Shown here: piece after piece, positions 4,234 through 45,761 of the stretch
Position numbering within the stretch: position 1 is the first letter of the stretch
Layout of the letters: each line of letters starts with the position of its first letter
From: a virus
Lineage: Duplodnaviria > Caudoviricetes
Virus record (IMG/VR): IMGVR_UViG_3300037484_000235
Coordinates: 96,001-160,000 of that record
Direction: 5' to 3' (one strand)
DNA: 64,000 nucleotides
Translations under genes and position numbers: made by a program
The notes under the pieces: generated by a model
Told to the model about the DNA's origin: nothing
Database searches by the model: none
The model's input: the letters and a program-made list of their open reading frames with translations, nothing else

Positions 4234-4704
4234 ATGCAGCCAAGTGCACGGCGCGTAGCAGCCCGTCACCTGGCTGCTGAGGCAGAGGATGCGGAGCAGT
4301 TCCTGGAGGGATTTCTCCGTAGGCACCCTGTGATGCGCACCCTTGTGCCAAAGAGGGTACGGAACAAGATGCCAACATCGAGCCATCATCACCCAGAAGC
4401 GTCTCAGGAGGGTTTGGAGATCTGGCTCTTCCCGAAGTTCTGGGCCCTGGACAAATCCACCAGAGACTTCGTGATGGCCCATGAAATAGGCCACTTTGTC
4501 CTTTCTGAAAGAGGCGGCCTCATCAAGTTGGTCCCAACAGGGGCCGACCTCGGTCTAGATCTGTGGGACACGTCATCCCTTCCATTTGGTCAGGAAAACA
4601 TGGAAGAGGCATTTGCAGACTCTTTCGCGACGTACTACCTAGCTCGACAGGAACTCGCGCGGCGGTACCCTTTGTGGGTGAAACTCATTGAGGCCACGGT
4701 CTGA
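4234..4704 (+). CDS. zincin-like metallopeptidase (HExxH)
   Basis: MAHEIGH plus downstream EEAFADSFATYY. Confidence 0.7.
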   Translation: MQPSARRVAARHLAAEAEDAEQFLEGFLRRHPVMRTLVPKRVRNKMPTSSHHHPEASQEGLEIWLFPKFWALDKSTRDFVMAHEIGHFVLSERGGLIKLVPTGADLGLDLWDTSSLPFGQENMEEAFADSFATYYLARQELARRYPLWVKLIEATV

Positions 4705-6904: not shown

Positions 6905-6980
6905 TCCAGGGTAGCTCAGTGGAAGTAGCGTCCGGCTGTTAACCGGATGGTCGCAGGTTCGATCCCTGCCCCTGGAGCCA
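6905..6980 (+). tRNA. tRNA-Asn(GTT)
   Basis: tccgg-ctGTTaa-ccgga, CCA. Confidence 0.9.
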
Positions 6981-7053
6981 AGACGAATGCTCGGTCGGGA
7001 GTACATCAATCTTCGATACCCCCTCTCGGCCACTAAAATTGTCGTCTGTCTTT

Positions 7054-7122
7054 AGGTCGGATGCCGTGGCGGCAAACGAGATTCCAACACTCGTGGACAG
7101 GGTTCGATTCCTTGCCGACCTG
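7054..7122 (+). tRNA. tRNA-Trp(CCA), atypical
   Basis: aggtcgg/ccgacct acceptor, short D arm, loop ttCCAac. Confidence 0.7.
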
Positions 7123-7286
7123 CCGCGTGGTGACCGAAAGGGACTCTTACCGGGGTCTCGGCTTTGGTTGCTCGTAGGGCGAATGCCGCTGAGAACTACA
7201 TTCTCCAAATCAGAAGGGCTTGCCGGAAGGCTGGCTCGGGTCGTCGCAAGACGGCCACTGTTTTCAGCACTCTTGTCGCTCGAAAT

Positions 7287-7360
7287 GCCTCATGATGCGC
7301 TTGGAGCGCAGCCTCTCTGTCTAAGAGGTGAAGCCGGTTCGATTCCGACATGGGGCGCCA
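7287..7360 (+). tRNA. tRNA-Asp(GTC)
   Basis: cctct-ctGTCta-agagg, CCA. Confidence 0.85.
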
Positions 7361-7516
7361 AGATTTCGTCGGACGCCAATCCGATTGGGCCTTAGACCAC
7401 GACCCTTGGCGGGGTGAAACAGCACGCAGGGCTCACTGCCCTGTTGTCCGAGATGGTCGCTCGGTGGTTGGGTGTAACAGCCCGCGCCATGATGTAAAGG
7501 GCCCGAGATCTTGACT

Positions 7517-7592
7517 GCCATCCAAGCTAATCTGGTGAAAGCGCCGGTCTGAAGAATCGGAGAGCCTGGATCAAAACCAGGGGATGGCACCA
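7517..7592 (+). tRNA. tRNA-Phe(GAA)
   Basis: ccggt-ctGAAga-atcgg; T loop ATCAAAA atypical; CCA. Confidence 0.8.
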
Positions 7593-7679
7593 TGCGTTGG
7601 TCGTCTAAATGCCGTAAAGACGCTAGGCACTGATCCGGATCGGTGCCTGGAAATGCAGTCTCGCAAACTGCACGACGCA
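7593..7679 (+). ncRNA. tRNA-like RNA with closed, extended anticodon arm
   Basis: tgcgttg/cgacgca acceptor; D-like and T-like arms; middle arm ctaggcactgatc/gatcggtgcctgg. Confidence 0.6.
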
Positions 7680-7685
7680 GAAAAT

Positions 7686-7760
7686 GTCCTGTTCGGCTAA
7701 CGGAAGGCCCTCTGACCCTCAATCAGATGACGGTGGGTTCAACTCCCCCATGGGACGCCA
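7686..7760 (+). tRNA. tRNA-Glu(CTC), C33
   Basis: tctga-ccCTCaa-tcaga, CCA. Confidence 0.85.
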
Positions 7761-7762
7761 AT

Positions 7763-7837
7763 GCACTCGTAGCTCAGTGGAAGAGCTTCCGGCTTCGAAC
7801 CGGATGGCCGGGGGTTCAAATCCCTCCGGGTGCGCCA
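7763..7837 (+). tRNA. tRNA-Arg(TCG)
   Basis: tccgg-ctTCGaa-ccgga, CCA. Confidence 0.9.
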
Positions 7838-7849
7838 GTAGTGATCGAT

Positions 7850-7922
7850 GTCTTTGTAGCTCAGTGGATAGAGCAGGCGTTTCCTAAACGCAAGATCGGA
7901 GGTTCGATCCCTCCCAAAGACG
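7850..7922 (+). tRNA. tRNA-Arg(CCT)
   Basis: gcgt-ttCCTaa-acgc. Confidence 0.85.
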
Positions 7923-7925
7923 CTA

Positions 7926-8057
7926 GGGCAGATGCGGTGAGGACTACATAACAGGAACTCGGGGTCGCTGGTTCAAGTCCAGCCTGCCATCCTGGATGGC
8001 AGTAGCTCAGTCTGGTAGAGCACGAGTAAAAACCAATCTTCGCTAACCTTGCTGCCC
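7926..8057 (+). ncRNA. YrlA-type Y RNA (circularly permuted tRNA mimic)
   Basis: order: T arm (gctgg-TTCAAGT-ccagc), hairpin-closed acceptor (ctgccat/atggcag), D arm (gctc-agtctggta-gagc); actcg/cgagt stem leads to outer gggcag/ctgccc stem. Confidence 0.85.
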
Positions 8058-8066
8058 GAACTTTAT

Positions 8067-8142
8067 GGTGGCTGTAGCACAACGGTAGTGCGCCCGGCTG
8101 TGAACCGGGTTACGGAGGGTTCAACTCCCCCCAGTCACCCCA
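8067..8142 (+). tRNA. tRNA-His(GTG)
   Basis: cccgg-ctGTGaa-ccggg, G-1, CCA. Confidence 0.9.
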
Positions 8143-8149
8143 GATGTAT

Positions 8150-8224
8150 TGGCTCGTAGCTCAACGGGAGAGCACCCGGCTGATAACCGGGAGGTCGTGG
8201 GTTCGACTCCCACTGGGCCAACCA
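8150..8224 (+). tRNA. tRNA-Ile(GAT)
   Basis: cccgg-ctGATaa-ccggg, CCA. Confidence 0.9.
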
Positions 8225-8233
8225 GTTCGTTTG

Positions 8234-8306
8234 TGCGATGCGGCGGGGACGCCGTCCAGGCCTCATAAGCCAGGAATGCCAGGTTCAACTCCTGGGATCG
8301 CAACCA
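8234..8306 (+). tRNA. tRNA(CAT), atypical D arm
   Basis: ggc-ctCATaa-gcc, T arm, CCA. Confidence 0.7.
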
Positions 8307-8312
8307 AGTGAT

Positions 8313-8387
8313 TGCCCTGTAGCTCAACGGAAGAGCGCTGTCTCGACAAGGCAGAGGCCGTGGGTTCAACTCCCACTAGGGCAACCA
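8313..8387 (+). tRNA. tRNA-Val(GAC), C33
   Basis: ctgtc-tcGACaa-ggcag, CCA. Confidence 0.85.
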
Positions 8388-8391
8388 ACGA

Positions 8392-8462
8392 TGTTCTGTC
8401 TAGTTGGAAGGGGGCCCTAATCGCGAGGGGCCGCGCAGGTTCAAGTCCTGCCAGAGCAGCCA
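8392..8462 (+). ncRNA. degenerate tRNA-like RNA
   Basis: tgttctg/cagagca acceptor, intact T arm and CCA; no D stem, non-canonical anticodon loop. Confidence 0.5.
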
Positions 8463-8528
8463 AGCTCGCCTACCATGTGTGGGTGGAGTAACGGGGTCGT
8501 GTCCTCACGGGGACGGCCCCAGCTTTAT

Positions 8529-8603
8529 CGCGGGATGGAGAAGTGGTATCTCGTCGGGCTCATAACCCGGAGAACGCCGGTTCAAATCCGGCTCCCGCAA
8601 CCA
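8529..8603 (+). tRNA. initiator tRNA-fMet(CAT)
   Basis: C1:A72 mismatch, GGG/CCC anticodon stem, CCA. Confidence 0.9.
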
Positions 8604-8606
8604 AAT

Positions 8607-8683
8607 GGGGTCGTAGCTCAGTTGGGAGAAGCGCCTGCATCGCAAGCAGGAGGTCGTGAGTTCAAATCTCACCGATTCCACCA
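8607..8683 (+). tRNA. tRNA-Ala(CGC)
   Basis: G3:U70, cctgc-atCGCaa-gcagg, CCA. Confidence 0.9.
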
Positions 8684-8740
8684 TGTTTTAATAGTGGTTG
8701 ACTTACCATACTGAATGGTTCAACCTTCACCGTATCCACC

Positions 8741-9322
8741 ATGCTAGACACAGATCACCCTGAGGAAATTGTTTCCTCATCTTGGGATGGCCGTCCTCGA
8801 AGACTTGTTGCCAATCTTTGTGGTCATTGTCATGGCAGGTTCTTTGCCCCGAGACACACAACTGCAAAGTTCTGTTCTAAGACATGCTCCGACGAGTCAC
8901 AGAAGAACAAGACCGTTCTTGTTTGTGCCCAATGTAAAAGGTCTTTTGAGCGTGTTCCCAGTACCTTGAAGAACTCCCGGAGTGGGGTGAGATTCTGTCA
9001 GAGATCCTGTAAGGATGAGGCTCAAAGACTTGAGGGTCTCAAGGCCATACACCCTTCTCACTACGGGAGTGACATCACCCACAAGAAAGCTCTGATTAGG
9101 GATAGGGGACACAAGTGCGAGGTGTGTGGTTTCTCTCGGTGGCAAGGCAAGCCAATATCTCTGCACGTCGATCATGTCGACGGAAACCCTTATGACCACT
9201 CCCTAAGCAACCTTCGATTGATCTGTCCAAACTGTCATACCCAGACGCCAACTTATGGCGGCAGGAATAGAGGAAGGGGGAGAAAGTCGCGAAAGCTTCC
9301 GGATTGGAGTGACGTGAGGTGA
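8741..9322 (+). CDS. HNH endonuclease with Zn-ribbon N-terminus
   Basis: CEVC..LHVDHVDGN..NLRLICPNCH. Confidence 0.9.
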   Translation: MLDTDHPEEIVSSSWDGRPRRLVANLCGHCHGRFFAPRHTTAKFCSKTCSDESQKNKTVLVCAQCKRSFERVPSTLKNSRSGVRFCQRSCKDEAQRLEGLKAIHPSHYGSDITHKKALIRDRGHKCEVCGFSRWQGKPISLHVDHVDGNPYDHSLSNLRLICPNCHTQTPTYGGRNRGRGRKSRKLPDWSDVR

Positions 9323-9334
9323 TGGGGTGTTTTT

Positions 9335-9407
9335 CGGGGTGTAGCTCAAATGGGAGAGCTTTGGCGAACAGCCAAAGATCAGGGTTCGAATCCCTGCTAC
9401 CCGGCCA
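9335..9407 (+). ncRNA. tRNA-like RNA with 5-nt anticodon loop
   Basis: D arm gctc/gagc, tttggc-gaaca-gccaaa, T arm cagggTTCGAATccctg, CCA. Confidence 0.6.
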
Positions 9408-9541
9408 GTGTTGTGGAAATACTCGATGGGGATTACATTACCTGCTAAGTAATCGATCTGGGTTCGACTCCCAGGCGCTCCCGTAAGGGGGCGAGCCAGG
9501 GGCTAGAAAAACATCTCTGTCATCACTTGTTTCACAGCACT
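9407..9541 (+). ncRNA. YrlA-like RNA 2
   Basis: outer stem agtgttgtgg/tcacagcact; T arm ctggg-TTCGACT-cccag; acceptor closed by GTAA tetraloop; minimal D-like hairpin. Confidence 0.65.
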
Positions 9542-9551
9542 ACTTCTTTTC

Positions 9552-9692
9552 GTGGTGAATACCGCAGTGACTACATGGAAAACGGTTGCCGAAAGGCGTG
9601 TGGGCTTCGATACCCACCTCAGCCTCGCAAGGGCTGAGTGGCGGAATGGCAGACGCGACTGCAAATGTCACTGTGACCCCTCTTGTCACCAC
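9552..9692 (+). ncRNA. YrlA-like RNA 3 (class II tRNA-derived)
   Basis: gtggtga/tcaccac and cgcagtgac/gtcactgtg stems; variable arm gccGAAAggc, T arm, closed acceptor ctcagcc/ggctgag, Leu-type D arm. Confidence 0.8.
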
Positions 9693-9833
9693 ACTAACTT
9701 CGCATGGGCCCTACGGGGTCCATGTGCAGACGGGTCTCGTAGGTCGCGCCAGGCCCTACGAGCTGGAAGATAGGGGACGCCACCCGCGAAAGCGATCAGC
9801 GGCCCCGAGTCCTGTCCGTGTTCCTGGTATTCT

Positions 9834-9908
9834 GGGGCTGTAGCTCAGTTGGGAGAGCGTCTCCATGGCATGGAGAAGGTCAAGGGTTCGATTCCCTTCA
9901 GCTCCACC
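9834..9908 (+). tRNA. tRNA-Ala(GGC)
   Basis: G3:U70, tctcc-atGGCat-ggaga. Confidence 0.9.
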
Positions 9909-10067
9909 GTAAGGGTAGTTCAAGTTGCGGTCGCGTACCGCACGGGGACGTAGGACAACCACAAGTCTGTGCACAGGTCGGTGGGAAGATCACGCGACGT
10001 GAGAGCTGCCTTCCAATAGAAGGTGAACGCAGGCGGAAACCCTGCCCCTTACGACAATTTCAAACAT

Positions 10068-10143
10068 GGGGACGTAGCTCAGCTGGGAGAGCGCGGGCTT
10101 TGCAAGCCTGAGGTCGCAGGTTCAATCCCTGTCGTCTCCACCA
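10068..10143 (+). tRNA. tRNA-Ala(TGC)
   Basis: cgggc-ttTGCaa-gcctg, CCA. Confidence 0.9.
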
Positions 10144-10144
10144 A

Positions 10145-10238
10145 GGTGTAGGATTGCTAATCGGTAGGCAGGGAGGCTACAGGCTGACGAGCCTGGTACG
10201 GCCACCCGTATTGCAGGTTCAACTCCTGCCCAGCACCC
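10145..10238 (+). ncRNA. long-variable-arm tRNA-like RNA without canonical anticodon loop
   Basis: acceptor ggtgtagg/ccagcacc, caggct-gacg-agcctg, variable arm gtacgg/ccgtat, T arm. Confidence 0.55.
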
Positions 10239-10243
10239 CGTGT

Positions 10244-10318
10244 GCCCTCGTAGCTCAGTGGGAGAGCACCACATTGGTAATGTGGGGGTCGCCGGTTCAA
10301 TCCCGGCCGAGGGCTCCA
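10244..10318 (+). tRNA. tRNA-Thr(GGT)
   Basis: ccaca-ttGGTaa-tgtgg, CCA. Confidence 0.9.
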
Positions 10319-10328
10319 AGTTCGTTTT

Positions 10329-10399
10329 GCGGGCATGGTCAAGTGGCTTGGCCCTAGGCTTCCAACCTAGAGACGCGAGTTCGATTCTCGCTGCCCGCT
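10329..10399 (+). tRNA. tRNA-Gly(TCC)
   Basis: ctagg-ctTCCaa-cctag. Confidence 0.9.
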
Positions 10400-10514
10400 C
10401 AAATGTTCGTTCCGTTCGGAGGTGGTTTGATCAGGCCAAGTGACGCAAGACTAGCTCCGGGGCTATGATCTCGGTGCGTTACCGATTGAGCTACCTCCGA
10501 ACGGAACGACGAGT

Positions 10515-10589
10515 GCGGGTGTGGCGCAGTGGTAGCGCATCAGCTTCCCATGCTGAATGTCGCGGGTTCGACTCCCGCCACCCGCTCCA
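10515..10589 (+). tRNA. tRNA-Gly(CCC)
   Basis: tcagc-ttCCCat-gctga, CCA. Confidence 0.9.
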
Positions 10590-10680
10590 GGTTGAATGCC
10601 ACGTCGGGAGTACATCCCTATACGATAAACCCTCTCGACAACCGTGCAGACTAGTGCTGCACACCTTGTCAACCTTTCAC

Positions 10681-14416: not shown

Positions 14417-14947
14417 ATGCATAAGACGCTTGTTCTCGATCAGGGCTACCAGCCTCACCGCGTGGTGAGTTGGCAGCGAGCCGTCACGATGTGGTGGGAC
14501 GGCAAGTGTGAGATCGTCGAGGAGTATGACGAAGACATCCGGAGCGTGACCTTCACGATCAAGATGCCTGCTGTAGTCAGACTTCTTCAGCGGGTTCGGG
14601 GGAAGAAGCAGGCTGTCAAGTTCTCGCGGATCAACGTCGCGACACGGGACAACATGACTTGTCAGTACTGTTCTGACAAGCTTCCGCTCTCGAAGCTCAC
14701 CTACGATCACGTTGTCCCAAGATCTCAGGGTGGAAAGACTCTGTGGGAGAACATCGTGATGGCCTGTTACGGCTGCAACGAGAAGAAGGCCGACCGCACT
14801 CCTGCTCAGGCGAAGATGCCTTTGAAGAAGGTGCCGGTGAAGCCAGCCTTCCTTCCGGTGATCTCGATGCGTTTCGAGACGGGTTCCTGCCCGGATCTGT
14901 GGCGCTCTTGGATCTACTGGAACACCGCCCTCGAAGAGGGCAGCTAG
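14417..14947 (+). CDS. HNH endonuclease (McrA/HNH_5-like)
   Basis: TLVLDQGYQP..RDNMTCQYC..TYDHVVPRSQGG..WENIVMACYGCNEKK. Confidence 0.92.
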   Translation: MHKTLVLDQGYQPHRVVSWQRAVTMWWDGKCEIVEEYDEDIRSVTFTIKMPAVVRLLQRVRGKKQAVKFSRINVATRDNMTCQYCSDKLPLSKLTYDHVVPRSQGGKTLWENIVMACYGCNEKKADRTPAQAKMPLKKVPVKPAFLPVISMRFETGSCPDLWRSWIYWNTALEEGS

Positions 14948-15259: not shown

Positions 15260-15347
15260 GGAAACTGAACTAGACTGGGTCTGGGCCCGCTTGGAAAGCG
15301 GTGAGATATCGCAAGGTGTTGAGGTTCAATTCCTCCGGTTTCCGCCA
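15260..15347 (+). tRNA. tRNA-Ser(GGA)
   Basis: ccgc-ttGGAaa-gcgg, long variable arm, GCCA. Confidence 0.85.
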
Positions 15348-15579: not shown

Positions 15580-15966
15580 ATGCCGTATGCTAACCCAACC
15601 CAACAGCGAGAGTACCAGGTAAGGTGGCTGAGAAAGCGACGCGAGGAATGGTTGAAGGCTCACGGACCCTGCGTGGCTTGTCGCTCTACGGTTGATTTAG
15701 AGGTCGATCATGTAGATCCAAACCTGAAGCTCGACCATAACGTGTGGTCGTGGTCAGAGTGCCGCAGGGCAGAGGAGTTGGCGAAGTGTCAAATCCTCTG
15801 CAAACGGTGCCACATGAAGAAGACACTTGAGCAAAGACCTAGTACTCAGCACGGATGTGCTCAGATGTATCAGAAGTACAAGTGTCGGTGTGATGTCTGC
15901 CGCTCATGGAAACAGGCTTCAGACGCAAGATACAGAAGTGTTCGAAAATCGAAGTTCGGAAGATAA
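15580..15966 (+). CDS. HNH endonuclease
   Basis: CVACRSTVDLEVDHVDP..CQILCKRCH plus C-terminal CRCDVC. Confidence 0.9.
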   Translation: MPYANPTQQREYQVRWLRKRREEWLKAHGPCVACRSTVDLEVDHVDPNLKLDHNVWSWSECRRAEELAKCQILCKRCHMKKTLEQRPSTQHGCAQMYQKYKCRCDVCRSWKQASDARYRSVRKSKFGR

Positions 15967-16990: not shown

Positions 16991-16992
16991 TT

Positions 16993-17079
16993 GGAAGCTG
17001 AATTGGTGATGGCACCAAGCTTGATTGCTAATCAATGCGTGCCTACGGGCATGGGGTTCGAATCCTCCGGTTTCCGCCA
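16993..17079 (+). tRNA. tRNA-Ser(GCT)
   Basis: ttga-ttGCTaa-tcaa, long variable arm, GCCA. Confidence 0.85.
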
Positions 17080-17134: not shown

Positions 17135-17300
17135 GGGGATTTAGCACAATGGTAGTGCTCTCCAACCGGGTGATACCGGCAGGGGTGGTCTAGAGGCGAG
17201 GAGATCCGACGGAGGGGTAGCTGCCCGAGTCGACTCCAAGAATCTAGGGCGGTGGGGCGAAAGCTCCACGGAGTGGGTTCGAGTCCCACAATCTCCACCA
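17135..17300 (+). ncRNA. Ala-identity tRNA frame with ~105-nt insert
   Basis: ggggatt/aatctcc (G3:U70), ACCA end, D arm gcac/gtgc, ctcc/ggag stem enclosing the insert. Confidence 0.7.
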
Positions 17301-17691: not shown

Positions 17692-19359
17692 ATGAAAGAG
17701 GGGAATTACATCATGGCAAATCGAAAGCTTTTCGCGTCCGCTCCGGCTGGTCGGGTAGCACCGCCCACCGACACTGTGAACTCTGCTGGTGGTCGAGCCT
17801 ACAAGGCTGGTCCGAAGGAGGCGCTCGCCCAGTACGTGGCGACCGGCTGCCTTGGGGCAACCTTCTACGCTTCGGCTGAGGAGCAGCTCGATGAGATCCT
17901 CAAGCTCGCGTCCGACGTGAGCCCGGAGTTCGTCGCACAGGCGGCCGTCTACGGACGTCGGTCTGCGTTCATGAAGGACACTCCGGCGCTTCTGCTCGCG
18001 CACCTGGCGACCCGTGGTCCAGAGGGTCTTGCTGCGCTCAAGGCGGCATTCAACCAGGTCGTAGACAACCCGAAGATGCTCCGCACCTTCGTGCAGATCA
18101 TGCGCTCGGGCAAGGTCGGCCGGAAGTCACTCGGCACCGCACCCAAGACCCTGGTCAAGGCGTGGTTCGATGCACGTTCTGACGTGCAGCTCTTCCGTGC
18201 GACCGGTGACAAGCCGTCGCTTGCGGACGTGATCAAGATGGTCCACCCCAAGCCCCAGAACGCGGCTCGGAAGGCCCTCTACGCCCTCCTGGTGGGCAAG
18301 AGCTACGACCTCGATGCGTGCGATGCACTCGTCCAGGAGTTCGAGGCGTGGAAGAAGGATCCGTCGCGGCCAGTACCGGACGTTCCCTTCCTCATGCTCA
18401 CGAACGTCCAGCTCGACAAGAAGCAGTGGGTGGCTATCGCCCGGTCGGCTTCCTGGCAGACCGCACGCATGAACCTCAACACGTTCCTGCGTCACGGTGT
18501 GTTCGAGGACAAGGCAATGATCAAGGTCATTGCGGCCAAGCTGCGGGATGAGTCGGAGATTGCTCATGCACGGGTCTTCCCGTACCAGCTTCTCGTCGCG
18601 TACCGGAACGTCTCTGGCGTTCCGATGGAGATCCAGAGCGCCCTCCAGGACGCGATGGAGATCGCAACGAAGAACGTTCCTGTGATCGATGGGACCGTCG
18701 CTGTCTTCCCAGACGTGTCGGGTTCCATGTGCAGCCCGGTCACGGGTGCACGGGGTTCCGCAACCACCAAGGTCGAGTGCAAGGACGTAGCGGCGCTAGT
18801 GGCCGCTACGATTCTCCGGCGCAACCCTGGTGCGCGCGTGGTTCCCTTCAAGGAGGACGTGATCAACCTTCGGCTCAACCCGAAGGACAGCATCGTCACC
18901 ATCGCGGAGCAGATCGCGAAGTGTGGCTCGGGCGGCACCAACTGCTCGGCACCACTGCGCCTCCTGAACTCTGAGAAGGCCAAGGCGGACCTTATCGTCT
19001 ACGTCTCAGACAACGAGTCGTGGATGGATCCAAACGTCTCCCTCAACTCGTACTCCTCGGGGTACACCAGCTCGCCAACGAGCATGATGGCGGAGTGGGA
19101 GAAGTTCCGCGTCCGCAACCCGGCGGCAAAGCTCGCCTGCATCGACCTCGCGCCCAACGGTTCTCGTCAGGCACCAACTCGCAAGGACATCCTGAATGTC
19201 GGAGGCTTCTCTGACGAGGTCTTCACCCTGCTCTCCGAGTTCCACAAGGGCTCGGGAGGCGACCACTGGGCGAAGAAGATCGGGAGTGTTCAGCTCGGTC
19301 GTGAAGTCCCAGTCGCACCCGTGAAGCCCACGGGTGGAACTGATTGGGTGACCCTCTAA
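17692..19359 (+). CDS. rsr: Ro60/TROVE-VWA RNA-binding protein
   Basis: DTVNSAGGRAY..TGCLGATFYASAEEQL TROVE N-terminus; SWQTARMNLNTF; VWA MIDAS DVSGSM; GGTNCSAP; SDNESW. Confidence 0.95.
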   Translation: MKEGNYIMANRKLFASAPAGRVAPPTDTVNSAGGRAYKAGPKEALAQYVATGCLGATFYASAEEQLDEILKLASDVSPEFVAQAAVYGRRSAFMKDTPALLLAHLATRGPEGLAALKAAFNQVVDNPKMLRTFVQIMRSGKVGRKSLGTAPKTLVKAWFDARSDVQLFRATGDKPSLADVIKMVHPKPQNAARKALYALLVGKSYDLDACDALVQEFEAWKKDPSRPVPDVPFLMLTNVQLDKKQWVAIARSASWQTARMNLNTFLRHGVFEDKAMIKVIAAKLRDESEIAHARVFPYQLLVAYRNVSGVPMEIQSALQDAMEIATKNVPVIDGTVAVFPDVSGSMCSPVTGARGSATTKVECKDVAALVAATILRRNPGARVVPFKEDVINLRLNPKDSIVTIAEQIAKCGSGGTNCSAPLRLLNSEKAKADLIVYVSDNESWMDPNVSLNSYSSGYTSSPTSMMAEWEKFRVRNPAAKLACIDLAPNGSRQAPTRKDILNVGGFSDEVFTLLSEFHKGSGGDHWAKKIGSVQLGREVPVAPVKPTGGTDWVTL

Positions 19360-19367
19360 CCAAATGG

Positions 19368-19468
19368 TGGTCTTTTTCGTCCCCTACACAAGTCGAAGTC
19401 ACAACTCCAAGTGACGCCACGCCAGAAGTCGAGCCTGGGGCGGTTTGTGTGGGGGGCGAAGAAGGTCA
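19368..19468 (+). ncRNA. Y RNA candidate downstream of rsr (YrlB position)
   Basis: about 26-bp terminal stem followed by GTCGAAG (GNCGAAN0-1G motif) and two apical hairpins. Confidence 0.7.
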
Positions 19469-19473
19469 TCTAT

Positions 19474-45332: not shown

Positions 45333-45761
45333 ATGGCACTTACCAGGGAAATTTTCGACTTCACCTACCGATCCGGATCCGCCGGAACGTACTACTACTT
45401 CACGATCTCCCAGGACTCAACGGGTGGGATTTCGCTCAAGAACGTCCAGACTCCGAATGGTCGGATCATCGACTCTCAGACCGGGCTGCCACAATCGGTT
45501 GTGTCCGATATTGACGCTGCCATCATACAGGTGGAGAACTTCGTGGCTCAAACCAGCGCAGTAAATGGAACACTCAGCTTTGTGGCTCAGACGAGCCAAA
45601 GCGTGACTTTCGCTACCCCCTTTGCAGGGACGACCTACCGGGTGCAGTTGGCACTGGCCGACTATATCCCGGCTCGGGTAATCTCTAAGCTTACGACCGG
45701 ATTCACCGTAGAATTGGGCGTGAGCTACACAGGAGACGTCGGGTACGACGTTTTTGTCTGA
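45333..45761 (+). CDS. putative virion structural protein
   Basis: beta-rich, Thr/Gly-rich. Confidence 0.6.
   Translation: MALTREIFDFTYRSGSAGTYYYFTISQDSTGGISLKNVQTPNGRIIDSQTGLPQSVVSDIDAAIIQVENFVAQTSAVNGTLSFVAQTSQSVTFATPFAGTTYRVQLALADYIPARVISKLTTGFTVELGVSYTGDVGYDVFV

What the first reader, a model, noticed from the sequence alone, without database searches (positions are those of the whole stretch)
7926..8057. Textbook circularly permuted tRNA (YrlA-type) RNA
The tRNA 3' half comes before the 5' half: actcg-gggtc-T arm (TTCAAGT), then the acceptor closed as a hairpin (ctgccat-cctgg-atggcag), then U8A9, D arm (agtctggta) and cgagt. The anticodon stem continues into an outer stem ending gggcag/ctgccc. 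All canonical D- and T-loop residues are kept, but there is no anticodon and no free CCA. tRNA scanners would miss or mis-call it.
Basis: partly seen in the sequence, partly recalled or inferred. Interest (0 to 1): 0.85.

Follow-up and report, generated by a model that had tools for sequence, protein, structure and literature searches.

The report
Phage YrlA-type Y RNA in tRNA array
This is a real small RNA of the known YrlA class, a tRNA look-alike on a stem that binds the Ro60/Rsr protein, encoded between two tRNA genes of a very large uncultivated phage that also carries its own Rsr gene; it is a new example of a known kind, not a new kind.

Summary
Rfam's YrlA model matches it full length at 59 bits (E 7e-14 in the 252-kb phage record). 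That is below Rfam's 69-bit cut-off but far above tRNA-tRNA junction artefacts (at most 21 bits). A full-length Rsr/Ro60 gene lies 9.6 kb downstream on the same strand (17692-19359). Homologous elements occur in 11 of 15 related Rsr-carrying phage contigs. All 13 pairs of the non-tRNA stem covary, and 94.6% of cells pair against 39-52% in slid controls. In the closest relatives it occupies the same slot, tRNA-Arg(CCU) | YrlA | tRNA-His. A model built from the phage copies finds genuine bacterial YrlAs in an rtcR-rsr-yrlA-rtcBA operon. The reading is therefore supported, as a divergent YrlA member. Five further Y-like RNAs with the same Rsr-binding stem lie in the same tRNA island. No RNA data could be found, so expression and Rsr binding remain inferred. 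This scan has noted similar phage Ro60/Y-RNA modules on other DNA (about 610 unchecked notes, at least 391 genomes). Interest is modest.

The parts
7925..8061 (+). YrlA-type Y RNA (extent of the full-length Rfam RF02553 match). The helix-closed core is 7926-8057.
   Evidence: Rfam YrlA: 59 bits, model 1-114. Own model R1 (built with this sequence among 8, so a self-match by construction): 118 bits. MFE fold.
7926..7931 (+). P1 5' strand, GGGCAG. Pairs with 8052-8057 (CUGCCC). Outer helix of the presumed Rsr-binding stem.
   Evidence: All 6 pairs covary in relatives, 99% of cells paired.
7932..7935 (+). 5' side of the conserved internal loop (AUGC). Opposite AACCUUG at 8045-8051.
   Evidence: (G)AAUGC and CUUGU are conserved in all relatives.
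7936..7943 (+). P2 5' strand, GGUGAGGA. Pairs with 8037-8044 (UCUUCGCU).
   Evidence: All 7 modelled pairs covary, 94% of cells paired.
7944..7956 (+). Single-stranded linker starting with the conserved CUACAU.
   Evidence: UACA is invariant in 16 of 16 aligned elements. It is shared by all six Y-like RNAs of the window.
7957..8027 (+). Circularly permuted tRNA-like module: AS stem 7957-7961/8023-8027, V loop 7962-7966, T arm 7967-7983, closed acceptor hairpin 7984-8002, U8A9 8003-8004, D arm 8005-8021, A26 8022.
   Evidence: T, acceptor and D helices covary in relatives.
8037..8057 (+). 3' strands of P2 (8037-8044) and P1 (8052-8057), with the loop AACCUUG (8045-8051) between them.
7850..7923 (+). 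Upstream tRNA-Arg(CCU). Its discriminator G7922 is followed by CUA, not CCA, and then directly by P1.
   Evidence: The same neighbour is found in relatives G002, G003 and G005.
8068..8142 (+). Downstream tRNA-His(GUG), with G-1 encoded at 8067. The RNase P site here would set the Y RNA's 3' precursor end (inferred).
   Evidence: The same neighbour is found in relatives G002, G003, G004 and G005.
17692..19359 (+). rsr: phage Ro60/Rsr ortholog, 555 aa, the presumed protein partner.
   Evidence: Pfam vWA_Ro60 7.7e-18 and TROVE 2e-7. D. radiodurans Rsr 2nvo 1e-20 and phage phiLo Ro60 9kop/9l5y 7e-19. Thousands of Ro60 homologues.
6981..7047 (+). Short Y-like RNA: Rsr-type stem only, YrlB-like. Starts right after the CCA of tRNA-Asn.
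   Evidence: R1 19.4 bits. Rfam YrlB 22.5 bits, weak. Fold. Signature scan.
7177..7281 (+). Y-like RNA: the same stem with GGGCGAAUGC and CUACAU, but a three-hairpin non-tRNA module.
   Evidence: R1 28.5 bits, E 5e-5. Fold z -3.2..
9413..9535 (+). YrlA-like paralog with a T arm and closed acceptor hairpin. The D arm is reduced.
   Evidence: R1 38 bits, E 2e-7..
9553..9691 (+). YrlA-like paralog whose permuted tRNA module carries an extra variable-arm hairpin (class II-like).
   Evidence: R1 40.9 bits, E 4e-8..
10590..10674 (+). Short Y-like RNA, sister of 6981-7047. Starts right after the CCA of tRNA-Gly(CCC).
   Evidence: Fold z -3.05. Signature scan..

Best explanation
The element is a YrlA-family Y RNA encoded by a huge uncultivated phage.

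Shown here:
- It has the two YrlA modules. One is a terminal bipartite stem (P1, conserved AUGC/CUUG internal loop, P2, then CUACAU). The other is an acceptor-closed, circularly permuted tRNA mimic that keeps all tRNA tertiary-contact residues.
- It is homologous to curated bacterial YrlAs.
- It is conserved with compensatory changes in related phages.
- The phage carries an intact Rsr/Ro60 gene in the same plus-strand tRNA island.

Inferred:
1. It is co-transcribed with the tRNAs. It lies 2 nt after tRNA-Arg(CCU)'s N-CUA and 9 nt before G-1 of tRNA-His.
2. Its ends are made by the host tRNA end-processing enzymes: RNase P at tRNA-His, and RNase Z or another 3'-end nuclease at tRNA-Arg. This would give an RNA of about 135-144 nt.
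3. The phage Rsr ring binds the P1/loop/P2 stem.
4. The tRNA-like module recruits a host effector, most likely PNPase, which the phage record does not encode. This would form a RYPER-like exoribonuclease RNP that degrades or remodels structured RNA during infection, as shown for D. radiodurans and S. Typhimurium and in vitro for Thermus phage phiLo.
For: Family match and chance controls:
- Rfam YrlA matches full length at 59 bits, E 4.9e-13 locally and 7e-14 for the genome. It is the only such match in the 252-kb record.
- The MFE fold equals the proposed structure.
- tRNA scanners do not call it.

The protein partner:
- Rsr gene at 17692-19359: Pfam vWA_Ro60 7.7e-18 plus TROVE; PDB 2nvo 1e-20.

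Conservation in relatives:
- 11 of 15 related Rsr-carrying phage contigs have full-length YrlA hits of 40-62 bits. The four misses are fragments of 6.9-24 kb.
- In an unfitted MAFFT alignment all 6 P1 pairs are kept in 8 of 8 sequences while the bases change.
- Over 47 distinct sequences, 94.6% of cells pair against 39-52% when slid. 26 of 29 pairs show double changes, and 0 of 500 shuffles reach the observed values.
- The slot Arg(CCU)|YrlA|His is conserved.

Link to bacterial YrlA:
- The nearest bacterial Rsr (57% identity) sits in rtcR-rsr-yrlA-rtcB-rtcA. Its YrlA scores 72 bits on Rfam and 70-75 bits on the model built from phage elements.

Gene content and transcription signals:
- No PNPase or RtcB in the phage record.
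- No promoter-like or terminator-like site at the element.

Literature:
- YrlA binds Rsr and carries TruB/DusA modifications; phage YrlAs are known (PMC4201824).
- The crystal structure shows tRNA mimicry (bioRxiv 10.1101/312249).
- Phage Ro60, Yrl RNA and host PNPase form a complex in vitro (PMC12135203).
Against: - The score is below Rfam's gathering cut-off (59 against 69 bits).
- The 5'-strand motif GNCGAAN0-1G reads GGCAGAUG. The closing pair next to the loop is G-C in this element only, 1 of 41, so recognition by Rsr is not guaranteed.
- rsr is 9.6 kb away. The 2014 survey required 4 kb or less.
- No RNA run holding the sequence could be listed, so expression, RNA ends, modification and Rsr binding are all untested.
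- The MFE z-score is only -1.47.
- The phage record is about 57% complete, so the absence of PNPase and RtcB is provisional.
- The effector bound by the tRNA-like module is not known even for model YrlAs.
Confidence: 0.85

Rival explanations
1. It is a two-piece Y RNA. As in M. smegmatis, RNase P cuts the loop of the 7-bp acceptor-like stem and the CCA-adding enzyme extends the new 3' end. The active form would then be a nicked tRNA mimic with a free CCA end, still held together by the stems and bound by Rsr.
For: - The acceptor stem is 7 bp (8 with C7991-G7995), the length that Chen et al. link to RNase P cleavage of M. smegmatis YrlA (PMC4201824).
- After the 3' acceptor strand the sequence reads C-C, as needed for completion by 'CA' addition.
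- The phage record encodes a CCA-adding/poly(A) polymerase family enzyme.
Against: - The loop is only 3-5 nt, a poor RNase P leader.
- Relatives close this stem with 3-12-nt loops, including three stable GNRA tetraloops (GAAA, GAAA, GCGA). There is no conserved NCCA, which argues that the closed hairpin is what is selected.
- S. Typhimurium YrlA is not cleaved (PMC4201824).
Confidence: 0.12
2. It is an Rsr-independent tRNA decoy. The mimic would soak up a host tRNA-binding factor, such as a tRNA-targeting defence nuclease or a modification enzyme, to protect the phage's own 46 tRNAs.
For: - It is embedded in a tRNA array and keeps all D/T-loop identity and tertiary residues.
[quoted passage not shown] Wang et al. 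take this conservation to mark a binding site for an unknown factor (bioRxiv 10.1101/312249).
- A phage Ro60-like protein counters a defence system in Bas63 (PMC11482910).
Against: - There is no anticodon loop and no free 3' end, so it lacks the targets of known anticodon nucleases and 3'-end-modifying toxins.
- The conserved, covarying P1/loop/P2 stem and its co-occurrence with rsr in every relative are not explained by a pure decoy.
Confidence: 0.06
3. It is not a functional gene. It would be either the decayed remains of two adjacent tRNA genes or a tRNA-tRNA junction scored by the YrlA model.
For: - Chen et al. warn that tandem tRNAs can mimic YrlA in searches.
- Such junctions do give partial hits in this very array.
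Against: - Junction hits cover only the middle of the model and score 18-28 bits. This element matches end to end at 59 bits.
- It overlaps no tRNA call.
- The acceptor strands are joined by a 3-nt loop.
- The non-tRNA stems covary across phages whose Rsr proteins are only 42-83% identical.
- No tRNA of the array is a close source.
Confidence: 0.02
4. It is a circularly permuted tRNA gene, as in Cyanidioschyzon merolae, processed through a circular intermediate into a normal tRNA.
For: The 3' half precedes the 5' half.
Against: - There is no anticodon loop. The AS stem opens into a 13/9-nt internal loop and two further helices.
- No CCA or processing junction exists in the 3-5-nt acceptor loop.
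- The bulge-helix-bulge splicing machinery that this pathway needs belongs to eukaryotes and archaea (established knowledge, not tested here).
Confidence: 0.01

Closest known systems
YrlA (Rfam RF02553): S. Typhimurium and other bacterial YrlA RNAs (Chen et al. 2014, PMC4201824; Wang et al. 2018, bioRxiv 10.1101/312249)
   Same: - Same two-module design: a terminal Rsr-binding stem with an AAUGC/CUUGU-type loop and CUAC, plus an acceptor-closed permuted tRNA mimic with canonical T and D arms.
- Full-length covariance-model match.
- Linked to an rsr gene.
   Different: - Scores 59 bits, below the 69-bit cut-off.
- The GNCGAA motif carries a compensated GA/UC to AG/CU swap.
- A larger internal loop separates P2 from the AS stem.
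- There is no rtcR-rtcBA operon. It sits in a phage tRNA array 9.6 kb from rsr.
M. smegmatis YrlA (PMC4201824)
   Same: Seven-base-pair acceptor-like stem.
   Different: The mycobacterial RNA is known to be nicked by RNase P and extended with CCA in vivo. Nothing is known for the phage RNA. Its acceptor loop is only 3-5 nt.
Mycobacteriophage YrlAs (e.g. ET08, cluster C; PMC4201824)
   Same: Phage-encoded YrlA together with a phage Ro60 gene.
   Different: - In ET08 the YrlA match lies about 190 nt upstream of the Ro gene, not between tRNAs.
- The ET08 Ro protein is only about 23% identical to this one.
Thermus phage phiLo Ro60 with Yrl1/Yrl2 (PMC12135203; PDB 9KOP, 9L5Y)
   Same: A phage Ro60 that binds phage-encoded Y-like RNAs and assembles with host PNPase in vitro. 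This is the best experimental precedent for the proposed mechanism. The protein matches at 7e-19.
   Different: Yrl1 and Yrl2 are described in that paper as stem-bulge-stem RNAs with a CGAA motif next to the gene. No tRNA-like module is reported for them.
Myxococcus phage Mx1 (OR576727.2)
   Same: - Nearest cultured phage: Rsr 45% identical, with rsr inside a tRNA island.
- It holds an unannotated homologous YrlA between tRNA genes (L048:255-380, R1 65.9 bits).
   Different: - A 170-kb genome.
- Its YrlA falls below E 1e-4 with the Rfam model.
Permuted tRNA genes of Cyanidioschyzon merolae and relatives
   Same: The 3' half is encoded before the 5' half.
   Different: Those genes yield normal tRNAs with an anticodon and a CCA end. 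This element has neither.

Membership tests
YrlA (Rfam RF02553; Chen et al. 2014) | Full-length match to the family covariance model at or above Rfam's gathering score (69 bits) | tested here: not met
   59 bits, model 1-114, E 7e-14 for the genome. The match is highly significant and end to end but 10 bits short of the curated cut-off. This is an operational threshold, not a biological feature.
YrlA (Rfam RF02553; Chen et al. 2014) | Acceptor-closed tRNA-like domain: T arm with GGUUCRANUCC, D arm with AGCUCA..GGUAGAGC, U8A9, AS stem, 5-nt V loop, no anticodon, no free CCA | tested here: met
   The helices covary in relatives.
YrlA (Rfam RF02553; Chen et al. 2014) | Terminal stem formed by the 5' and 3' ends, carrying the Ro-binding motif GNCGAAN0-1G on the 5' strand | tested here: inconclusive
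   The stem is present and covaries in all 13 pairs. The motif reads GGCAGAUG: 6 of 8 positions match, and the GA to AG change is compensated by UC to CU. Five sister RNAs and all relatives keep [CUG]GAA, GAAA or CAAA before U.
YrlA (Rfam RF02553; Chen et al. 2014) | Encoded near a Ro60/Rsr gene (within 4 kb in the 2014 survey) | tested here: not met
   rsr is present on the same strand in the same tRNA island but starts 9.6 kb downstream. In more distant relatives the YrlA copies abut rsr: L009, L015, L017. The 4-kb rule was a search filter.
YrlA (Rfam RF02553; Chen et al. 2014) | Homology to accepted members (reciprocal recognition) | tested here: met
   A model built from 8 phage elements scores 70-75 bits on the YrlAs of a Phycisphaerales rtcR-rsr-yrlA-rtcBA operon. 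Rfam itself scores one of these at 72 bits.
YrlA (Rfam RF02553; Chen et al. 2014) | Bound by Rsr in vivo; pseudouridine 55 and dihydrouridine added by TruB and DusA | not testable with these tools
   No RNA run could be listed.
tRNA (RF00005) | Cloverleaf with an anticodon arm and free acceptor ends | tested here: not met
   Not called by ARAGORN or the Rfam tRNA model. There is no anticodon loop.
Circularly permuted tRNA genes | Halves that, once joined, give a complete tRNA with an anticodon loop and a CCA-accepting end | tested here: not met
   The AS stem opens into an internal loop and two more helices. The acceptor strands are linked by 3-5 nt with no CCA.
Ro60/Rsr protein (partner gene 17692-19359) | TROVE HEAT-repeat ring plus C-terminal vWA domain | tested here: met
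   Pfam vWA_Ro60 7.7e-18 and TROVE 2e-7. Aligns over residues 28-465 to D. radiodurans Rsr 2nvo, 1e-20.

The most novel reading that the evidence does not exclude
The phage uses its tRNA island as a production line for a modular set of at least six Rsr-binding Y RNAs. All share one handle (P1, RAUDC/YUUG loop, P2, UACAU). They carry different heads:
- a class I tRNA mimic (7926)
- a mimic with a variable-arm hairpin (9553)
- a mimic with a reduced D arm (9413)
- a non-tRNA three-hairpin head (7177)
- two short YrlB-like forms (6981, 10590)

Each abuts tRNA genes so closely, starting 0-2 nt after the preceding tRNA's encoded CCA/CUA or ending about 5-10 nt before the next tRNA, that the host tRNA end-processing enzymes would release it. 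One phage Rsr could then be tethered to several different host partners during infection.
Probability: 0.35. Interest if true: 0.55.

Novelty: new member of a known kind. Interest (0 to 1): 0.3.

Why it matters
It extends the YrlA/Rsr pairing from bacteria and actinobacteriophages to a clade of very large environmental phages. Their nearest cultured relative is Myxococcus phage Mx1.

It also shows that standard annotation misses such RNAs, for three reasons:
- They fall below Rfam's cut-off.
- tRNA scanners ignore them.
- The 2014 survey excluded hits overlapping tandem tRNAs or lying more than 4 kb from rsr.

The tight tRNA|Y RNA|tRNA packing predicts that tRNA-processing enzymes make the Y RNA's ends. 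Mx1 is cultured and carries a homologous copy, so this can be tested there. The biology itself, a Y RNA tethering Ro60 to an exonuclease, is already established, so the gain is incremental.

Tried and rejected
- Megablast of 7000-9000 against 50,697 phage records found no match.
- RNA evidence: two run searches listed only small-share DNA metagenomes (sediment, groundwater) and no RNA run. I therefore did not lay reads.
- Plain MAFFT alignments of all 16 elements put the 5' ends out of register. I replaced them with an 8-sequence alignment and a covariance model.
- Recent origin of the tRNA-like module from one of the phage's own tRNAs: the best matches (Thr, Ala, Lys) share only the universally conserved D/T-arm residues, so I rejected this.
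- RtcB and PNPase/RNase PH domains were not found in the 252-kb record, which is about 57% complete.
- Sigma-70-like promoters and intrinsic terminators: none at the element, and counts do not exceed shuffles.
- DNA of the 473-kb contig that carries a 75%-identical Rsr could not be fetched.
- The tRNA-dimer artefact and the permuted tRNA gene were considered and rejected (see rivals).

Full report
**Setting.** The window is bases 96001-160000 of a 252,521-bp IMG/VR virus record that CheckV rates about 57% complete. That points to a very large phage. ARAGORN finds 46 tRNA genes, all on the plus strand, between 6336 and 20928. Rfam confirms 40 of them at its gathering score. The finding lies in the 144-nt gap between tRNA-Arg(CCU) (7850-7923) and tRNA-His(GUG) (8068-8142).

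**Observation.**
- P1: GGGCAG/CUGCCC, 7926-7931 with 8052-8057.
- Internal loop: AUGC opposite AACCUUG.
- P2: GGUGAGGA/UCUUCGCU, 7936-7943 with 8037-8044.
- A 13-nt strand beginning CUACAU.
- AS stem: ACUCG/CGAGU.
- V loop: GGGUC.
- T arm: GCUGG-UUCAAGU-CCAGC.
- Acceptor strands: CUGCCAU and AUGGCAG, joined by CCUGG. This can also be read as 8 bp with a CUG loop.
- U8 A9.
- D arm: GCUC-AGUCUGGUA-GAGC.
- A26.

All residues that make the tRNA elbow and core contacts are in place. There is no anticodon loop and no free CCA end, and neither ARAGORN nor the Rfam tRNA model calls it. The energy z-score against shuffles is only -1.47, so thermodynamics alone would not establish the element.

**Identity.** A permissive Rfam scan matches the YrlA model RF02553 over all 114 positions at 59 bits. 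E is 4.9e-13 for the 401-nt stretch, 1.9e-11 for 15.5 kb and 7e-14 in the whole-record search. It is the only hit at E 0.001 or better in the 252-kb record. This is below the curated 69-bit threshold, which is why the gathering-score scan is silent.

Chen et al. warned that the T arm of one tRNA plus the D arm of the next can imitate YrlA. Such junction hits do occur here, but they cover only the middle of the model and score 18-21 bits on Rfam and 15-28 bits on my own model.

**The partner gene.** The TROVE family search finds one gene in the record: window 17692-19359, plus strand, 555 aa.
- Pfam gives vWA_Ro60 (7.7e-18) and TROVE (2e-7).
- The best solved relatives are D. radiodurans Rsr (2nvo, 1e-20) and the Ro60 of Thermus phage phiLo (9kop/9l5y, 7e-19).
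- The big protein search returns thousands of Ro60 proteins. Metagenomic proteins on large, phage-sized contigs are 62-87% identical (several shown to be phage contigs). Bacterial Ro60s (Phycisphaerales, Planctomycetales, Sandaracinaceae MAGs) are about 55-57% identical.

**Comparative evidence.** Fifteen viral contigs encode relatives of this Rsr at 42-83% identity, with rsr set among tRNA genes in those scanned. Rfam YrlA gives full-length hits of 40-62 bits in 11 of them. The four without a hit are fragments of 6.9-24 kb.

Single-sequence folds of 16 such elements show the same architecture in nearly all of them. In an ordinary MAFFT alignment of eight, all six P1 pairs are kept in 8 of 8 sequences while the bases change, for example GGGCAG/CUGCCC, GCGCUG/CAGCGC, GUGCCA/UGGCAC and GUCACG/CGUGAC.

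I built a covariance model from these eight (R1) and aligned all matches in the window and 28 loci. Of the 77 matches, 47 are distinct. Results:
- 94.6% of cells form standard pairs, against 39-52% when the 3' partners are slid by 1-3 columns.
- 26 of 29 pairs show changes on both sides.
- No shuffle of 500 reaches the observed values.
- All 13 pairs of P1 and P2, the part that owes nothing to tRNA, covary.

That alignment is fitted to the model, so one search is the unbiased check.

**Position.** In relatives G002 and G005 the element sits, as here, between tRNA-Arg(CCU) and tRNA-His. In G003 two copies flank tRNA-Arg(CCU), with tRNA-His next. In G004 two copies lie between tRNA-Glu and tRNA-His.

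**Link to the bacterial family.**
- The 57%-identical Phycisphaerales Rsr lies in a classical rtcR-rsr-(651-nt gap)-rtcB-rtcA operon.
- The gap holds two YrlAs. One reaches 72.2 bits on Rfam, above threshold.
- Both score 70-75 bits on the model built from the phage elements.

The phage RNAs and accepted YrlAs are therefore one family.

**Nearest cultured phages.** The nearest cultured phage by Rsr is Myxococcus phage Mx1 (45%). Its rsr is also in a tRNA island, and it has an unannotated YrlA between tRNA genes (R1 65.9 bits) that Rfam misses at E 1e-4. In mycobacteriophage ET08, one of the published phage cases, the YrlA match lies directly upstream of the Ro gene and not among tRNAs.

**Peculiarities of this copy.**
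- The pair next to the internal loop is G-C here and A-U (38), G-U (2) elsewhere. The preceding pair is A-U here and mostly G-C elsewhere. The consensus GGGCGA-AUGC...CUUG-UCGCCC has thus become GGGCAG-AUGC...CUUG-CUGCCC. This is a compensated swap inside the GNCGAAN0-1G motif that Chen et al. associate with Ro binding.
- The acceptor-like stem has 7-8 bp. [quoted passage not shown] However, relatives close this stem with short loops, three of them GNRA tetraloops, and show no conserved NCCA. I rate a nicked form as possible but less likely.
- The tRNA-like module is not a recent copy of any tRNA of the array.

**Maturation (inferred).**
- 32 of the 40 Rfam-confirmed tRNAs encode CCA.
- tRNA-Arg(CCU) ends G-CUA, and P1 starts at the next base.
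- Two sister RNAs (6981, 10590) start at the base after the CCA of tRNA-Asn and tRNA-Gly.
- Downstream, 9 nt separate P1 from G-1 of tRNA-His.
- No promoter-like or terminator-like site flanks the element.

The simplest reading is one polycistronic transcript cut by RNase P and the tRNA 3'-end enzymes, which leaves an RNA of about 135-144 nt. The record also encodes a CCA-adding/poly(A) polymerase family enzyme about 50 kb upstream of the window.

**Function (inferred by homology).**
- In D. radiodurans and S. Typhimurium, Y RNA tethers Rsr to PNPase to form the RYPER complex (PMC4201824).
- The Ro60 of Thermus phage phiLo binds two phage Y-like RNAs and forms a ternary complex with host PNPase in vitro (PMC12135203).
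- The crystal structure of the S. Typhimurium YrlA head shows a true tRNA fold. Its conserved D and T stems were proposed to bind an unknown factor (bioRxiv 10.1101/312249).
- The present record has no PNPase or RtcB, so a host partner is expected.
- A Ro60-like protein of phage Bas63 counters the Ppl defence, and its authors already suggested that some neighbouring 'tRNA genes' are Y RNAs (PMC11482910).

**Beyond the finding.** Earlier unchecked notes of this scan claimed further Y-like RNAs in the island, and I tested that claim.
- R1 gives full-length hits at 9552-9692 (40.9 bits), 9412-9536 (38 bits), 7176-7282 (28.5 bits) and 6980-7048 (19.4 bits).
- Folds show the same handle in these and in 10590-10680.
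- I scanned for a composite signature: a 6-bp helix, RAUDC, 6-14 nt, UACA, then the complementary strand preceded by YUUG-like bases. It finds exactly these six in 6981-10674. It finds one other site in the remaining plus strand, none on the minus strand, and 0.6 on average in shuffles.
- Relatives also carry 2-5 copies each, some abutting rsr.

Multiple Y RNAs per Rsr are known in bacteria (PMC4201824), so this is an enlargement of a known theme.

**Verdict.** It is a new, divergent member of a known RNA family in a new phage lineage and genomic setting. Expression and binding are untested because no RNA data could be found. This scan has already recorded hundreds of similar phage Ro60/Y-RNA notes on other genomes. 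I did not use those as evidence.

Noticed in passing
window 6981-7047, 7177-7281, 9413-9535, 9553-9691, 10590-10674 (+): Five more small RNAs share the finding's handle (P1, RAUDC/YUUG loop, P2, UACAU) but have different heads. 9553 has a tRNA mimic with an extra variable-arm hairpin. 9413 has a mimic with a reduced D arm. 7177 has a three-hairpin non-tRNA head. 6981 and 10590 are short YrlB-like sisters.
   Followed up: partly
window 19360-19473 (+): Directly after the rsr stop lies a very stable long hairpin of about 26 bp (-56 kcal/mol, z -6.4, 0 of 200 shuffles), with GUCGAAG near the top of the main stem's 5' strand. It could be another Y RNA or a transcript-end structure.
   Followed up: partly
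window 15260-15343, 16992-17076, 10145-10237 (+): tRNA-like matches (Rfam tRNA-Sec model, 24-34 bits) that ARAGORN does not call. No tRNA-Ser is called in the window although relatives have several, so these may be unusual class II tRNAs or further mimics.
   Followed up: no
window 17200-17300 (+): Weak, heavily gapped tmRNA match (26.8 bits). Relatives L005 and L006 carry full tmRNA genes of about 410 nt in the same island.
   Followed up: no
window 8741-9322, 14417-14947, 15580-15966 (+): HNH endonuclease ORFs sit inside the tRNA array. They are probably mobile insertions that have pushed the YrlA and rsr apart. 15580-15966 is a weak match only, below Pfam's cut-off.
   Followed up: partly
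L048:255-380 and 607-710 (Myxococcus phage Mx1, OR576727.2:45169-45294 and 45521-45624): Mx1 has an unannotated YrlA (R1 65.9 bits). A second Y-like RNA (37.4 bits) overlaps an annotated 40-aa hypothetical CDS (WNM70101.1). Unannotated tRNAs lie at L048:385-458, 4384-4459 and 7424-7498.
   Followed up: partly
L047 (GCA_050186575.1, JBFWYI010000015.1, binned as Sandaracinaceae): On this 128-kb MAG contig, rsr is preceded by about 18 tRNA genes and two or more YrlA-like RNAs, as in the phages. The contig may be a phage or prophage rather than chromosome.
   Followed up: no
G000:C1:45866-46342 (-), about 50 kb upstream of the window: A CCA-adding/poly(A) polymerase family enzyme (PolyA_pol domain, 1.4e-15; open frame 547 aa) is encoded by the phage. 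8 of 40 tRNAs in the window lack an encoded CCA.
   Followed up: partly
window 7984-8002 and L032 (G007b): The acceptor hairpins of this YrlA and of a distant relative both close with the palindrome CAUCCUGGAUG, which contains CCWGG. This may be coincidence.
   Followed up: no
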